The notes under the pieces are model-generated. The model had not been told where the DNA came from, searched no databases, and saw nothing but the letters and a program-made list of their open reading frames with translations. From positions 59,212 through 123,211 of the IMG/VR virus record IMGVR_UViG_3300009103_001660: a stretch of 64,000 bases of DNA. The stretch is one strand, 5' to 3'. This document shows, piece by piece, positions 10,869 to 50,945 of this stretch (position 1 is its first letter; the number at the start of each line of letters is the position of its first letter). The translations under genes and the position numbers were made by a program. This stretch comes from a virus.

Positions 10869-11294
10869 TTATCTACCCTCGTTTAGAATATCTTTTACAT
10901 CTTTTTCTAATTTGGGTAATTCGTTCGAAGAACTAGACGGTTTCGTAAATTTTGCTCTATGAACATTGAATTCTCTTACGAGACGCTTTTTAAGTTCTCC
11001 AACGTGCTCGACTGGAAGTAGCCCAACAGATGTTGCGTGCGTTTGAAGAGAGGCTTTATCCTGTTCATCAAGCCAGTTTTTATACTCTTCTGGATCTAAG
11101 GTTTTATACTTTTGTTCACCAGAATCTCCCCAGATTTGGTCCAAGGTCGTAGGCACAAAAGTCTCTTTTTCTATCATTGCATGAGTTTGCTTGAGCTCTT
11201 TAGCTTTCGTACTCTTTTTTTTATTTGTCTTTTTAGGCATAATATTTAAATGGTTAGCCGATGCAGTATTTGAGTTACTGTCATCTCGGAGCAT
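10869..11294 (-). CDS. Hypothetical protein (start may be 11240, MPKK)
   Basis: Basic N-terminus then helical domain; lies just downstream of the group I intron. Confidence 0.7.
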   Translation of the reverse strand: MLRDDSNSNTASANHLNIMPKKTNKKKSTKAKELKQTHAMIEKETFVPTTLDQIWGDSGEQKYKTLDPEEYKNWLDEQDKASLQTHATSVGLLPVEHVGELKKRLVREFNVHRAKFTKPSSSSNELPKLEKDVKDILNEGR

Positions 11295-11330
11295 GGCGAA
11301 ATGTTAGTACACTGCCTCAATACTGTAATC

Positions 11331-11554
11331 CAATTTGTTATCATTAGTTTTTTAATTTTCTAACCTCTATATGTCGCCATATAGTTCGGACTATATCTTC
11401 GCTAATAAGCGTCGGGCGCTCGTGGGCGGGTTATTGTCGGGTCTCACCGCCTAGTCTCTACACCTTCCAGAGTATCAGTACCCCCTCTGGCTTGGCTCGG
11501 TATTGTCTCCCAAAAGAGATTTTCACCGAATTCACCCAATATGGCCAATTTTTT
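11331..11554 (-). ncRNA. ORF-less group I intron (IA-like, with P7.1)
   Basis: Core elements present in order: P3 UUGGGUG/CGCCCGA, P4 UUCGGU/ACCGAG, P5, P6/P6a CCAGAG/CUCUGG, P7 GACUA/UAGUCC, J8/7 AAGAUA, P8 CGCU/AGCG, P9 CUAUAUG-GCGA-CAUAUAG, P9.0 and terminal UAACAAAUUG. Confidence 0.9.
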
Positions 11555-11611
11555 ACCTTAACATATTCTACACTATCTTATGTAAAAATCAAATTATTTA
11601 TTAATATTTAA

Positions 11612-13249
11612 TCAAAACTCATCAGGACTTATTAATCCTTGACCTATACATTTATCGGTAAAGCTCATGATTCCTCCAGCATGCCCAGTATAATCTGTAT
11701 AATAATATATACTTCTATGAGGCCTAAATACGCCAGTATTAGTATATTCACCAGTATGGTAAGCACCTATCTTTCCCGTATCCCAAGTCATTCCACAGTC
11801 AGTATATATCGCCACAGTATGGCCTGGAATATTTCCACTTGCTGCTGTCGGGCTGGTTAAATTTATAGTCCCCCCCATATAAGTATGGTTTTCACAAGCG
11901 TAATATAGGGTATCTGGAGCGTTAAGGGGGGGTCTAAATTTTATCCCAGAACCATCTCTATTTAACGGTTCCATTCCGCTTAAGTACGGGTTTGTTCCAG
12001 AAGTAAATGCGAATAAATTCCCAGATTCGCCAGAGGTGTTTGCCCACAATACTGCGTTATAATGAACCCCCGTATCTCCGCCCCCATGAGGGGTGGTTGA
12101 TATGTATATTGTATGGTTTGCGTTTCCAGTAGCCTCTTGGAAGAAGTAGTATTCTCCCCCTCTAATAAGATCTAATGTCGGAGAGAAAATAAACCCACTA
12201 CCAGTGTGGTCTGGCGCAGCGCCAGTATCTACCAAAAACCCTCGAGAATGACCAACACCATGGTGCGGATGGGAAGCATCTTTTCCGCTTGTATCAATAT
12301 AAATATAATTCATCGAACTCGGTGTGATAAATTTAGTTATATTACTATGCAATTCTCCAGAAATTTCTGAACTTATATCGTTATTTATTCCAGATTTTCC
12401 ATCATATGTTTGCGCGAGCTTAAATGGAACCTGTATATACTCCGACACACCAGTTCCTGTGGTCATAACCCACGGAGGGGTCAAATCAAAATAAAAATAT
12501 TGACCATTTCCACTATGGATTTGATTAGCCATCTCTCCGCTAGTTCGAATACCGCTAGAGAGCATGTGGACATGCTTCTTTCTTATTCCCTGTATATAAA
12601 ATGAGTCGTTTGATGAATCAAAATAAACTTCCATGTCATTCTTTGAACAGGGGGTGTCATATTTAGTAACGTCTGTATAAAGATTCTCTCCATAGTACGT
12701 TTGCCAAAGGGTAGTAGATACTTCTTTTTCTGGGACATTTCCAACCGCATGTTTGTTTCTTATAGGTTCTAATACATCAAACTCTATACATGGATATGGC
12801 TTGTCGTAAGTTCCGTCTTGGGCATTATAATTTCTAATTTGAACCTTGTCTTGGTTATCTTCCCAGTATCTTCTATAGAAAGACTGAAACGCTCGATTAT
12901 ATTTTACATCTAGATTGTATCTTTTTATAGATGAGGTATCGTTTTCGTCATATCCATAAGGATAGCTAGCGGATAGATTCTTGTAAAAGGTTTCTACCGT
13001 CTCATCATCTAGAAAAGTATCAAATTTTCCTATGTAAAACCTATTTCCCTTTTTATAGTATCCGTTGTCATTGGAGCGATGAGTAAAACCCAATCTTTCA
13101 ATAGATAAAAGCTTCACTGGTTTTAGAAAAAATCTAGGCGTAGTATCCTCTACTCTGTTATATGAATTATAATTAAAGTAAAGGCGAACCCTAATCGCCA
13201 TTGCGCGATTGATTTTATTTATCTTTAAGTCAATCCATTCGTTAGCCAT
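11612..13249 (-). CDS. Virion structural protein with C-terminal cupredoxin-like domain
   Basis: PDTLYYACENHTYMGGTI motif seen in aquatic phage structural proteins. Confidence 0.55.
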   Translation of the reverse strand: MANEWIDLKINKINRAMAIRVRLYFNYNSYNRVEDTTPRFFLKPVKLLSIERLGFTHRSNDNGYYKKGNRFYIGKFDTFLDDETVETFYKNLSASYPYGYDENDTSSIKRYNLDVKYNRAFQSFYRRYWEDNQDKVQIRNYNAQDGTYDKPYPCIEFDVLEPIRNKHAVGNVPEKEVSTTLWQTYYGENLYTDVTKYDTPCSKNDMEVYFDSSNDSFYIQGIRKKHVHMLSSGIRTSGEMANQIHSGNGQYFYFDLTPPWVMTTGTGVSEYIQVPFKLAQTYDGKSGINNDISSEISGELHSNITKFITPSSMNYIYIDTSGKDASHPHHGVGHSRGFLVDTGAAPDHTGSGFIFSPTLDLIRGGEYYFFQEATGNANHTIYISTTPHGGGDTGVHYNAVLWANTSGESGNLFAFTSGTNPYLSGMEPLNRDGSGIKFRPPLNAPDTLYYACENHTYMGGTINLTSPTAASGNIPGHTVAIYTDCGMTWDTGKIGAYHTGEYTNTGVFRPHRSIYYYTDYTGHAGGIMSFTDKCIGQGLISPDEF

Positions 13250-26703: not shown

Positions 26704-28530
26704 TTATAACATTCTGGGTACAAAAGTTTGTGGTTCTTCTGCTGGGGTTGCCATCATATCATAATAGCACTTTATAGCCCAATTTGCTAACATTAATGTG
26801 GTATAATTATCTTTTCTAGCCCTATTTGCCGAGGTACTCTTCCTTAGGTGTAGCGGTAAATCAAATGTTTGACTACCTCTAGCTGTACTCTTAACCTCAA
26901 CAAGGGCACACTGCTTTTTTGTTTGATATACCAAAGCGTCTTGATTTTCGATAAAGTCTAAAAGGGATGGCTCATTTACGTGGTCTAATTTTACCTTGGA
27001 GTTTGAATATACATTAAAAGCCGCCTCATTACTTTGCACCCTAGAAGCAAACCATATTTTTTTATGATCAATTCGAGCTTGAAGATGTTCATTTGACTTT
27101 CTTATAAAGTCGGTTGTAAAAACTTGCTTGAAGCATACTTTACCGTCTTGTTTATTATATTCCCTTCTAGACTTCCTAATTCCTTTGTCATAATCTGCGC
27201 CTTCTGCGTCGCTATCAAATTCAAAGAATTTTAAATTGATTTTATCACTTTTAAATAATGCATTTTCGTTACAGCTATCTATAAATTGAAATCCAGCATT
27301 ATCAATGCATATCATTTCGATATTAAAATGAGTCATCACATGATACATATACTTGATGTGATCTTTAAGGTCACCGCCAGCAACAGCATAGCTGTGAACC
27401 AACGTACCAGTTTTCGTTTCGTCATCTAATTCAAGAACGGACATTGCAAAATAATCAGAAGAAGGACTATTACTAAAGCTGGGGTCAATACCCATTATAT
27501 ATTTTTTATCTTTATCTCCTATTATTTTTGTAGTTGGACTTTCTCCATCTGGAATGGTGCATTCGTGCATCTTTTTCGCACTAAAATAACTATCACTTCC
27601 GTCAGTAAATTGAGCACAATATTCTCTTTGGAAAGATGAATGACTTTGACCTCCGCTTTGTGCTTCGTCGATAATCGTTCTATCTATCATATGTTCTGGA
27701 AGAGATTCGTATCCCATTTGAGAAATAAAATATTTTGCTTCTTCGCTATCGTTTTTGTCATAGATTTTCGCTGTCCAGTCTTGATAGGTTTTAAATAGAT
27801 TTTCAAAAGTATAACTGGCAGATGATAATGCTATCATTTTTGTATCATTTTCAAAAACAGTTCTGTCCTCCTCCTTCATTTCCCCCTTTTCTATAAGCTT
27901 ATCTTCTATTTCTCTTACCTCTATTCTTTCTTTCATGTTTTGGGGCGCAACCAAAAACGGCATAAGAACTGTTTGGATTATATCTTCTGGAAGAAGAAGG
28001 TACTCATCTAAAACCAAAACGTTTGCGCGAAAACCTCTAATCTTTTCTCCGTTTAGCGGAATGGCTGTAATTGACCCTCCATTTATCAACCATTCAAACT
28101 GGTCGTTTCTTCTAGTTTTTGCACCAAAAGCTTGAGCTAATAATTCTGCACCCTTAGATTCTACTATTTTTTCTAAGTTGTTGAACACAAACCTTGCAGT
28201 TCTAAAAGTCGGACCAGCTATAAGAATTTTAGTTCCAGGATTAAATATGCACTGTAAAAAACAAAAGATTGAAGCAATAAAAGTTTTCCCACAACCACGA
28301 CCCCACACGCACATTGAAAAATTTCTATTCATTAAGGCCTTTAGTGTTATTTCTTGGTAGGGAGCTAACTTAACTCCAGAAATCAAATCTGTAGTAAGCC
28401 CCAAATTTGCCCTTAAGAATTTGGCTAGGCTTATCTTAGCTTCCTTGTTATCTAAATATCCCTTTATGTTAAGAAGCTCAGCGTTTACGCTTGGTATGTC
28501 TTTTTTATATTTATCTGGACAATACCACAT
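26704..28530 (-). CDS. terL: Terminase large subunit
   Basis: Walker A GRGCGKT, Walker B VLVLDE, FQREYCAQF, RNase H-like IMGIDP nuclease domain. Confidence 0.92.
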   Translation of the reverse strand: MWYCPDKYKKDIPSVNAELLNIKGYLDNKEAKISLAKFLRANLGLTTDLISGVKLAPYQEITLKALMNRNFSMCVWGRGCGKTFIASIFCFLQCIFNPGTKILIAGPTFRTARFVFNNLEKIVESKGAELLAQAFGAKTRRNDQFEWLINGGSITAIPLNGEKIRGFRANVLVLDEYLLLPEDIIQTVLMPFLVAPQNMKERIEVREIEDKLIEKGEMKEEDRTVFENDTKMIALSSASYTFENLFKTYQDWTAKIYDKNDSEEAKYFISQMGYESLPEHMIDRTIIDEAQSGGQSHSSFQREYCAQFTDGSDSYFSAKKMHECTIPDGESPTTKIIGDKDKKYIMGIDPSFSNSPSSDYFAMSVLELDDETKTGTLVHSYAVAGGDLKDHIKYMYHVMTHFNIEMICIDNAGFQFIDSCNENALFKSDKINLKFFEFDSDAEGADYDKGIRKSRREYNKQDGKVCFKQVFTTDFIRKSNEHLQARIDHKKIWFASRVQSNEAAFNVYSNSKVKLDHVNEPSLLDFIENQDALVYQTKKQCALVEVKSTARGSQTFDLPLHLRKSTSANRARKDNYTTLMLANWAIKCYYDMMATPAEEPQTFVPRML

Positions 28531-50289: not shown

Positions 50290-50945
50290 AAAAGTGTCCG
50301 TTACGCCACTACGGATAAACTGTAAGATGTCTTACCATCCCTGTCCCCGAAGGGCTATGGAGGCGTTGTACTCAGCACCTAGCATCCGTGGCCTGTAATC
50401 CAGCACCACGAAATAAATGTAACAATCAAGTGGTGAGCGTCATACGTCAAGTCAATGGGGTGTCAATTCACCTCTGCACGTTACAAACAACTTTGTTGCC
50501 GCCGTCACAGACACGTCATCGGAGCAGTCACCTACCGACATTCTTTTTCTGACTGTTACAAAATTAATGGGTAGTAGGATTGCTGCATTACCTACAAGAC
50601 CAGTGCACAATACAGTTCAAGTTTACCGATCTACTAACACTACGCAAGTCATACGATTGCACTCTCTCACGTAGCCCTATGCCTTTCCCCTTATGATGGA
50701 GGGATATTCAGCCATACCCTTTGTCCAACCGTCGTCGGACAAAATTGTTTAAAAAGAGCGGGTGAAATCCTTCGTGTTTCACGAATAGAATTGCTAGACT
50801 GTTATATGCATCTGTGCGACGCTAACACCGCTCTAATTTGTTGTTCCCCTACTTTGTCACGCTGTCTCGCTCATGGCCTGTAACCCAGCACCATCTCATT
50901 CCGCTCAAGCGTAGTGTTTTCAGAGAACTAAATTGTCTCAAAGAA
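50290..50945 (-). ncRNA. Putative multi-domain structured non-coding RNA array
   Basis: No minus-strand ORF in the track; nested closing stems with G-U pairs on minus strand; UUCG tetraloop; repeated hairpin; promoter TTGAAC-N17-TAATAT upstream; terminator downstream. Confidence 0.75.

What the first reader, a model, noticed from the sequence alone, without database searches (positions are those of the whole stretch)
11240..11580. Complete group I intron outside any recognisable gene, in a late-transcript leader with alternative folds
Seen: a compact (~224 nt) group I ribozyme with all core helices and no homing endonuclease lies between two structural-module genes. The likely 5' splice site is ...AAGGU| at 11555 (U-G pair with GCC). 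The likely omega-G is at 11331, since the preceding UU can pair with AA after P7. A GTGTA late-promoter motif is at 11569-11573, so the 5' exon would be only about 5-15 nt. The only ATG there gives M-L-R-stop with or without splicing, so no protein is restored. In the 3' exon, segment 11260-11274 can pair with either 11316-11330 (first bases after the splice junction) or 11276-11285 (local hairpin); these pairings are mutually exclusive. Splicing also creates AGGUGAU, complementary to the anti-SD. Known: phage group I introns normally interrupt CDSs or tRNAs; the C. difficile c-di-GMP-II-linked intron is a precedent for splicing-controlled translation from a leader. Inference: a splicing-gated regulator of the 10869 gene, an intron inside an unknown small RNA, or a stand-alone ribozyme making a stable linear or circular RNA.
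Basis: partly seen in the sequence, partly recalled or inferred. Interest (0 to 1): 0.85.

Follow-up and report, generated by a model that had tools for sequence, protein, structure and literature searches.

The report
Rearranged phage ribozyme making RNA rings
The group I self-splicing ribozyme is real, but it interrupts no gene: its cutting site lies behind its catalytic core, so it should cut a folded 75-base RNA out of its own transcript and close it into a ring, a layout known from RNA engineering but not found in print for phages.

Summary
A genuine group I ribozyme lies on the minus strand (Rfam RF00028, 68.3 bits, gathering score 50). The proposed 5' splice site at 11555 is not: that pairing is absent from all relatives.

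I collected 42 distinct homologues from related uncultured phage contigs. In all of them the guide (UUGGCC, 11548-11543) pairs with a target GGCU|AA lying 70-80 nt downstream of the terminal G (window 11259-11254). The G.U wobble is kept in 42 of 42, and two positions show compensatory changes.

The enclosed segment (11330-11256) is a covarying, pseudoknotted hairpin whose base holds both splice sites side by side. Most relatives have a promoter-like box just upstream, and three have a terminator right after the target.

This order (guide and core, then 3' site, segment, 5' site) matches engineered self-circularising constructs. It predicts a 75-nt RNA ring and a cut 15 nt before the next gene's AUG. 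No RNA data could be obtained, so catalysis and the ring are inferred.

Earlier notes of this scan report the same family on other DNA. The nearest natural case I found in print is a coral mitochondrial intron.

The parts
11612..13249 (-). Upstream gene, 545 aa, tail-fibre or baseplate-like. Its stop codon is TGA at 11614-11612. It is not interrupted by the ribozyme.
   Evidence: ORF list. Weak PHROG phrog_677 match. All three frames are closed between the stop codon and the ribozyme.
11565..11592 (-). Sigma-70-like promoter candidate, TTGATT-N16-TAGAAT. The -10 box ends 16 nt before the guide hexamer (14 nt before the P10 strand at 11550).
   Evidence: Consensus scan gives 9 of 12, not above the shuffled background for the window alone. 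By position, 36 of 39 relatives have a -10-like box ending 0-29 nt before the guide (0-20 nt in all but one). Several are TTGAC(A/T)-N17-TATAAT. Inferred, not shown.
11543..11550 (-). Internal guide. UUGGCC (11548-11543) pairs with the downstream target to form P1. AAUU (11550-11547) could pair with the first bases of the segment to form P10.
   Evidence: P1 is 98% paired, with G.U in 42 of 42 and UA30/CG6/UG6 and GC33/AU8 at two pairs. The complement sits at a fixed offset of +286 to +297 in 15 of 15 elements and never consistently upstream. The single-sequence fold already pairs 11547-43 with 11255-59. P10 is weak.
11343..11539 (-). Catalytic core: P3, P4, P5, P6/P6a, P7, a P7.1-type hairpin, P8, P9 (GNRA loop) and a P9.1-like hairpin with an A-rich loop. 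There is no P2 and no ORF.
   Evidence: Rfam alignment. Every helix pairs in 86-100% of cells, with compensatory changes in P6a, P7.1, P8, P9 and P9.1. P7 and its C-G pair are invariant. Mean pairwise identity is 84%.
11331..11342 (-). 3'-terminal motif GAUAAC-AAAUU-G. G11331 is the terminal (omega) G, so the predicted 3' splice site lies between 11331 and 11330.
   Evidence: The G is invariant in 42 of 42. The preceding UU can pair with the invariant AA after P7 in 37 of 42. The same motif ends canonical terminase introns directly before their 3' exon.
11256..11330 (-). Enclosed 75-nt segment, the predicted circular product. It is a long closing helix that starts at its first base, plus an inner hairpin whose loop forms a 3-bp pseudoknot.
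   Evidence: Length is 75-80 nt in 41 of 42 (70 by my first filter for L200). RNAalifold finds 17 pairs, all with compensatory changes. The fold is 84% paired against 34-41% when slid, 0 of 500 shuffles, and the pseudoknot is 100% paired. No tRNA or tmRNA is found when it is read as a circle. It is not conserved as coding.
11254..11259 (-). P1 target strand GGCU|AA. The predicted cleavage (5' splice) site lies between U11256 and A11255.
   Evidence: U is invariant in 42 of 42 and pairs with the invariant guide G11546.
10869..11240 (-). Downstream gene, 123 aa from ATG 11240, lysine-rich N-terminus, unknown function. Its AUG lies 15 nt after the predicted cut.
   Evidence: Homologues at 40-43% identity align from about residue 15-20 of the longer 141-aa ORF. 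In relatives the AUG follows the target strand by 2-102 nt. No family is found in Pfam, PHROGs, NCBIfam or the Atlas.

Best explanation
This is a natural, stand-alone, rearranged group I ribozyme unit, not an intron in a gene. It reads 5'-guide, intact core, terminal G, 75-nt structured segment, target strand-3'. In effect it is a group I intron circularly permuted at the P1 loop.

Inferred mechanism:
1. The guide UUGGCC pairs with GGCU|AA downstream to form P1.
2. A free guanosine nucleotide bound in P7 attacks after U11256. This frees the downstream RNA, which begins 15 nt before the AUG of the next gene and now carries one extra 5' G.
3. G11331 then occupies the G site, and the new 3'-OH of U11256 attacks the 11331|11330 bond.
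4. This closes the 75-nt segment into a ring and releases the roughly 220-nt ribozyme as a linear RNA.

Shown here: the ribozyme's identity, its conservation, and the position and covariation of P1 and of the segment's fold. Inferred: catalysis, the ring, the promoter, and any biological role.
For: - Rfam RF00028 at 68.3 bits, above the gathering score.
- Three of five related long phage records carry the same ribozyme directly upstream of the homologous gene, although the proteins are only 40-43% identical.
- 42 distinct elements were collected.
- The whole structure is 93.6% paired against 34-40% when slid, with 0 of 500 shuffles reaching it.
- P1 with the downstream strand has G.U in 42 of 42, and compensatory changes arose more than once on a core-only tree.
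- No conserved upstream partner exists.
- The terminal G, the cleavage U, the P7 G-site pair and the J7/9 AA are invariant or nearly so.
- The segment's closing helix reaches its first base, so both splice sites sit at the base of one covarying helix.
- Terminator-like hairpins directly after the target strand in L166, L202 and L228, and -10-like boxes ahead of the gene in L166 and L211 (a perfect TATAAT also in L204), show that the unit can stand alone.
- An engineered Tetrahymena construct of the same order self-circularises with P1 alone (Lee et al. 2023, PMC10457212).
Against: - There is no RNA evidence.
- P10 is only weakly supported.
- The segment is no more conserved in sequence than the flanks (49% against about 50%). 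It could therefore be only a structural tether and not a functional product.
- The window's own promoter match is weak (9 of 12), and no terminator separates it from the upstream gene.
- Homologues were retrieved with an exact 15-21-nt P3/P4 string, and target strands were first located by complementarity. Diversity is therefore limited and the P1 test is not fully independent.
- The tree is poorly resolved.
Confidence: 0.6

Rival explanations
1. Cleavage only. The rearranged ribozyme performs just the first step, cutting after U11256. Its job is to separate or define the 5' end of the downstream gene's mRNA. The 75-nt segment is merely a structured tether that presents the target strand to the guide, and no ring is made in vivo.
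For: In 34 of 42 loci the gene's AUG lies within 40 nt of the cut (35 in all within 50 nt), and in L201 it is 2 nt away. The segment's sequence is no more conserved than the flanks. P10 is weak.
Against: The terminal G is invariant, and UU/AA (P9.0) is kept in 37 of 42, which only the second step needs. Three loci terminate transcription right after the target strand, so in those there is no downstream mRNA to process. The constant segment length and the internal pseudoknot go beyond what a tether needs.
Confidence: 0.2
2. Hydrolytic route. The 3' site after G11331 is hydrolysed, and the freed terminal G then attacks the P1 site. This excises the 75-nt segment as a linear piece and leaves the ribozyme fused to the downstream mRNA as its leader.
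For: 3'-site hydrolysis followed by terminal-G attack is a known side pathway of group I introns (general knowledge). The same conserved elements (P1, terminal G) would be needed.
Against: It is not the main pathway of characterised group I ribozymes. It does not explain the loci with a terminator after the target strand. No data were available to test it.
Confidence: 0.06
3. This is a conventional intron in a transcript leader, with a very short upstream 5' exon (splice site at 11555, or at 11585 as Rfam's P1 suggests). Splicing remodels the leader of the next gene through mutually exclusive folds.
For: In the window alone, GGU (11557-55) can pair with GCC. Rfam aligns a P1 hairpin at 11587-82 with 11571-66 containing a U.G pair.
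Against: Neither pairing is conserved. Rfam's 'P1' in relatives falls on unrelated hairpins, and in the window it overlaps the promoter-like boxes. G003 has no GG within 60 nt upstream. In the L186 type the -10 box ends 7 nt before the guide. The alternative hairpin pairs in 35% of cells, equal to chance. No aptamer is detected.
Confidence: 0.04
4. A decaying remnant. An orphaned intron was left behind after a rearrangement, is no longer active, and has no function.
For: It is absent from two related loci (G005, G007), so it is dispensable for the phage group.
Against: The core is 84% identical across elements whose flanks are about 50% identical. All catalytic landmarks are invariant, and helices are maintained by compensatory changes. 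That is purifying selection, not decay.
Confidence: 0.05

Closest known systems
[quoted passage not shown] 2023, PMC10457212)
   Same: Identical order: guide and intact ribozyme at the 5' end, then the cargo, then a target site at the 3' end. Two transesterifications join the cargo's ends into a ring, and P1 alone is sufficient.
   Different: STS is man-made, uses a large Tetrahymena ribozyme with P2, and carries kilobase coding cargo. Here the unit is natural, uses a compact P2-less phage-type core, and carries a 75-80-nt non-coding structured cargo whose own helix juxtaposes the splice sites.
Classical permuted intron-exon (PIE) constructs (T4 td, Anabaena pre-tRNA), and the cis-splicing design of Qi et al. 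2024 (PMC11417360)
   Same: The splice sites are in reversed order around an exon, so back-splicing gives a circular exon.
   Different: PIE splits the core into two halves around the exon. Qi et al. keep the core whole but place it at the 3' end and break the intron at P9.0. Here the core is whole, sits at the 5' end, and the break is in the P1 loop.
ND5-717 group I intron of corallimorpharian mitochondria (Chi et al. 2019, PMC6545197)
   Same: A natural group I ribozyme that back-splices from a permuted precursor through a circular exon-containing RNA. The authors call it the first reported natural case.
   Different: There it is a true intron of a protein gene. The permutation arises from how a giant intron on a circular genome is transcribed, and the ring is an intermediate towards ND5 mRNA. 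Here there is no host gene and the unit is a dedicated cassette in phage genomes.
Natural circularly permuted group II ribozymes (Roth et al. 2021, PMC8637638)
   Same: Stand-alone bacterial ribozymes derived from self-splicing introns. Their splice sites are reversed and under 100 nt apart, they give small RNA circles (15-86 nt) in vitro, and their biological role is unknown.
   Different: A different ribozyme class and chemistry (branching). In group II the circle's sequence is poorly conserved. Here the circle's fold is strongly conserved.
Canonical ORF-containing group I introns in phage terminase genes (Staphylococcus phage 6ec/BE02, Arcanobacterium phage TPWB06, Proteus phage 3H10_20)
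   Same: The closest sequence relatives among annotated phages, at 74-78% identity over the 3' part. They share the P7.1-type hairpin, the A-rich P9.1 loop and the GAUAAC...G 3' end.
   Different: They interrupt a coding gene and carry homing endonuclease genes, with coding exons annotated on both sides; I did not examine their P1.

Membership tests
Group I catalytic RNA (Rfam RF00028) | Covariance-model score at or above the curated gathering score | tested here: met
   68.3 bits against 50, full-length match. Homologues score 58-79 bits.
Group I catalytic RNA (Rfam RF00028) | Core helices P3-P9, including the P3/P7 pseudoknot, maintained in evolution | tested here: met
   86-100% of cells paired per helix. 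Compensatory changes occur in P6a, P7.1, P8, P9 and P9.1. P7 is invariant.
Group I catalytic RNA (Rfam RF00028) | P1 helix with a U.G wobble at the cleavage site, and a terminal G at the 3' site | tested here: met
   G.U in 42 of 42 and terminal G in 42 of 42. The U-bearing strand, however, lies downstream of the core.
Group I catalytic RNA (Rfam RF00028) | Self-splicing or self-cleavage activity | not testable with these tools
   Needs in vitro transcription or RNA data.
Canonical group I intron (an intervening sequence in a gene) | Flanking exons that restore a protein, tRNA or rRNA gene after excision | tested here: not met
   All frames are closed upstream. There is no tRNA in the window or in the segment read as a circle. 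There are no other Rfam hits. Ribozyme-less loci show terminator plus promoter, not a continuous gene.
Canonical group I intron (an intervening sequence in a gene) | The 5' exon strand of P1 lies upstream of the guide | tested here: not met
   No conserved upstream complement exists. The complement is downstream at a fixed offset.
Permuted, self-circularising group I unit (PIE/STS topology) | Order on the RNA: 3' splice site upstream of the 5' splice site, with the ribozyme outside the enclosed segment | tested here: met
   The order is guide and core, G11331, segment 11330-11256, then U11256|A11255, conserved in 42 elements.
Permuted, self-circularising group I unit (PIE/STS topology) | P10 or another device that aligns the 3' site with the cleaved 5' site | tested here: inconclusive
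   P10 has its inner two pairs in 39-42 of 42, its outer two in about 55%, and few compensatory changes. The segment's own closing helix does align the sites and covaries strongly.
Permuted, self-circularising group I unit (PIE/STS topology) | A circular product with a back-splice junction | not testable with these tools
   The tools for sequencing runs and encoding contigs were unavailable.
   No riboswitch family is found at E up to 10 in the region. The proposed alternative hairpin is not conserved.
Lariat-capping (GIR1) ribozyme | A match to the GIR1 family and a location inside a twin-ribozyme intron ahead of a homing endonuclease gene | tested here: not met
   The only group I-type hit is RF00028. 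There is no endonuclease gene and no enclosing intron.

The most novel reading that the evidence does not exclude
The conserved, pseudoknotted 75-80-nt ring is itself the functional product. It would be a nuclease-resistant small circular RNA that these phages make in quantity from a dedicated ribozyme gene and that acts in trans during infection, for example by binding a host or phage factor. It would then be the first natural group I-derived 'circular RNA gene' in a virus of bacteria.
Probability: 0.3. Interest if true: 0.92.

Novelty: new variant of a known kind. Interest (0 to 1): 0.8.

Why it matters
Group I ribozymes are textbook selfish introns whose only known job is to remove themselves. 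This family is conserved across many uncultured phages and has been rewired so that the same chemistry should make a small RNA ring and cut a transcript instead.

- It would be the group I counterpart of the circularly permuted group II ribozymes.
- It would be a natural version of the designs now used to manufacture circular RNA, in a compact (about 220 nt), scar-free form that evolution has already optimised.
- It would add a new kind of phage non-coding RNA whose role can be tested directly.

Tried and rejected
Tools and searches that gave nothing:
- No whole genome is held for this window.
- IMG/VR searches with either flanking protein found no relatives. Relatives were reached through the terminase instead.
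- The terminase search of prokaryote genomes found nothing, so the host is unknown.

Ideas rejected:
- GTGTANAAT as a recurrent promoter motif: not enriched.
- A tRNA, permuted tRNA or tmRNA in the segment: ARAGORN finds none on doubled segments or in the window.
- A coding ring. Only the window's 75-nt version gives an endless frame. The 76-nt majority give 0-31 codons, and no other member exceeds 38.
- A fusion of the short upstream ATG (11565) to the 141-aa ORF. It is in frame only with arbitrary 3' sites and has no comparative support.
- Function of the downstream protein: no family in Pfam, PHROGs, NCBIfam or the Atlas.

Literature searches for a natural permuted group I ribozyme in phages or bacteria found none.

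Full report
**1. The observation**

The region was read on both strands.
- The default whole-window Rfam scan reported only a manA RNA elsewhere.
- Searching the region alone gave a full-length match to RF00028 (group I intron) on the minus strand at 11594-11367: 68.3 bits against a gathering score of 50, E 3e-17. A sensitive whole-window scan repeated it.
- The ribozyme contains no ORF.
- It lies between a 545-aa tail-fibre-like gene, whose stop is at 11614-11612, and a small gene downstream.
- All three frames are closed between that stop and the ribozyme, and the window has no tRNA.

**2. The 3' end**

The only DNA matches among annotated phages are about 100-nt stretches covering window 11331-11467. 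They lie in or beside split terminase genes of Staphylococcus, Arcanobacterium and Proteus phages and a crAss-like phage. In the first two the match directly abuts the downstream terminase exon.

The alignment shows a shared 3' motif, GAUAAC then AAAU(U)G, followed by the exon. It is invariant in all 42 homologues. The UU before it can pair with the invariant AA after P7 in 37 of 42.

**3. Relatives**

The window is a divergent, uncultured phage. Its large terminase (26704-28530) has at best 26% identity to cultured phages, but it has 422 relatives at 70-87% in IMG/VR.

| Records examined | Result |
|---|---|
| G001, G003, G004 | RF00028 ribozyme (58-79 bits) directly upstream of the homologue of the downstream gene; proteins only 40-43% identical |
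| G005, G007 | Gene present, ribozyme absent; a terminator hairpin and a short promoter-like stretch in a spacer of about 95 nt |

The roughly 300-nt unit is thus an accessory cassette at a fixed locus.

**4. Where P1 is**

Laying the loci side by side showed three things.
- Rfam's 'P1' falls on unrelated hairpins in each relative.
- The box UUGGCC, just 5' of P3, is complementary to a conserved GGCU|AA about 75 nt downstream of the terminal G.

In 15 of 15 elements the full complement lies at +286 to +297 from the guide, with no consistent upstream partner.

Pattern scans of IMG/VR and of metagenome contigs raised the set to 42 distinct elements. On an unguided MAFFT alignment:
- The whole proposed structure is 93.6% paired, against 34-40% with partners slid. 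None of 500 shuffles reaches any of the five measures.
- P1 is 98% paired. The G.U wobble is present in 42 of 42.
- Two P1 positions show compensatory changes: UA 30, CG 6, UG 6; and GC 33, AU 8.
- On a tree built from core columns only, the GC-to-AU change occurs in two separate groups, and the other pair changes state about nine times.
- The thermodynamic fold of the window sequence alone already pairs 11547-11543 with 11255-11259.

Caveats: relatives were retrieved with an exact P3/P4 string, target strands were first located by complementarity, and the tree is weakly resolved.

**5. The enclosed segment**

Between the terminal G and the cleavage U lie 75-80 nt in 41 of 42 elements, and 76 nt in 28.
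- RNAalifold on the segment alone predicts a long closing helix in which all 17 pairs show compensatory changes. The helix begins at the segment's first base, with GAY pairing with RUC immediately before GGCU.
- With an inner hairpin and a 3-bp pseudoknot added, the fold is 84% paired against 34-41% when slid, with 0 of 500 shuffles. The pseudoknot is 100% paired.
- Both splice sites therefore sit at the base of one covarying helix.
- In sequence the segment is only 49% identical, the same as the flanks. The core is 84% identical.
- It is not a tRNA or tmRNA when read as a circle, and it is not conserved as coding.
- P10 between AAUU (11550-47) and GAUU (11330-27) is only weakly supported.

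**6. Transcription signals**

- In 36 of 39 evaluable relatives a -10-like box ends 0-29 nt before the guide (0-20 nt in all but one). Several are perfect or near-perfect TTGAC(A/T)-N17-TATAAT. In the L186 type there is essentially no room for an upstream exon.
- In L166, L202 and L228 a terminator-like hairpin with a U-run follows the target strand. In L166 and L211 a -10-like box then precedes the gene's AUG, and L204 has a perfect TATAAT there. The unit can therefore be an independent transcription unit.
- In most loci, including the window, the gene's AUG follows the cut by 10-40 nt (15 nt here).
- For the window itself the promoter match is 9 of 12, which is not above background, and there is no terminator after the upstream gene. 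Its own promoter is therefore inferred only.
- GTGTANAAT is not enriched in the window.

**7. Mechanism (inferred)**

The order is guide and core, 3' site, segment, 5' site. That is a group I intron permuted at the P1 loop.
1. Standard chemistry predicts attack by a free guanosine after U11256. This releases the downstream RNA with an added 5' G.
2. U11256 then attacks the 11331|11330 bond. This gives a 75-nt ring and a linear ribozyme.

The engineered STS constructs have this same order and self-circularise with P1 alone (PMC10457212). That shows the topology is competent, at least in another ribozyme.

The invariance of the terminal G, and the loci with a terminator after the target, favour the two-step reaction over cleavage alone. 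Without RNA data this remains an inference. I put the two-step ring at about 0.6, and the broader claim (rearranged ribozyme that cuts at U11256) at about 0.85.

**8. Comparison and novelty**

- Natural back-splicing by a group I intron is in print for one coral mitochondrial intron. That is a true intron of ND5, permuted by transcript organisation (PMC6545197).
- Natural circularly permuted ribozymes that make small circles are known for group II (PMC8637638).
- Four full-text searches found no description of a stand-alone permuted group I ribozyme in phages or bacteria. The library does not hold most subscription journals.
- Earlier notes of this scan describe what is evidently the same 76-nt family, and other permuted group I units, on other DNA. 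Those are unchecked AI notes. One of them gave me the lead to the STS paper. The tests reported here were made independently on this window and its relatives.

I class this as a new variant of a known kind.

Noticed in passing
window 50564-50742 (-): A manA RNA motif (Rfam RF01745, 67.1 bits against a gathering score of 55.2). This is the only other Rfam hit in the window. From memory, the motif is typical of marine phages, which fits the marine-looking contig names of the relatives.
   Followed up: no
L187 (minus strand; guide at 11848-11868), with L153 and L222: A more distant subfamily has the guide GUGGCC, an enlarged P5 region, and a possible target AAAAGGCU|AAAC about 125 nt after the terminal G, 9 nt before an AUG. 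The rearranged layout may therefore extend to units with a longer, different enclosed segment.
   Followed up: partly
L214, L115 and L130: Another variant has the guide AUGGCC and the same P3/P4 string. I could not find a convincing downstream target with a U.G wobble, so its architecture is unresolved.
   Followed up: no
window 11256-11330 (-): The window's segment is 75 nt, divisible by three. Read as a circle, one frame starting at AUG 11283-11281 has no stop, giving an endless ORF. This is not shared by the 76-80-nt relatives and is probably a coincidence.
   Followed up: yes
L201 (= IMG/VR L143), just after its target strand: The downstream gene's AUG starts 2 nt after the predicted cleavage site. 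Cleavage there would leave an almost leaderless mRNA.
   Followed up: no
window 11565-11557 and 11294-11286 (-): The short ATG upstream of the guide and the longer 141-aa ORF inside the segment both begin M-L-R. I found no comparative support for either start, so this is probably chance.
   Followed up: partly
L089 1903-1994 and L230 about 1910-2011: The ribozyme-less relatives have a strong GC-rich terminator hairpin followed by a promoter-like stretch at the position that the cassette occupies in the window. These could serve as natural 'empty site' controls.
   Followed up: yes
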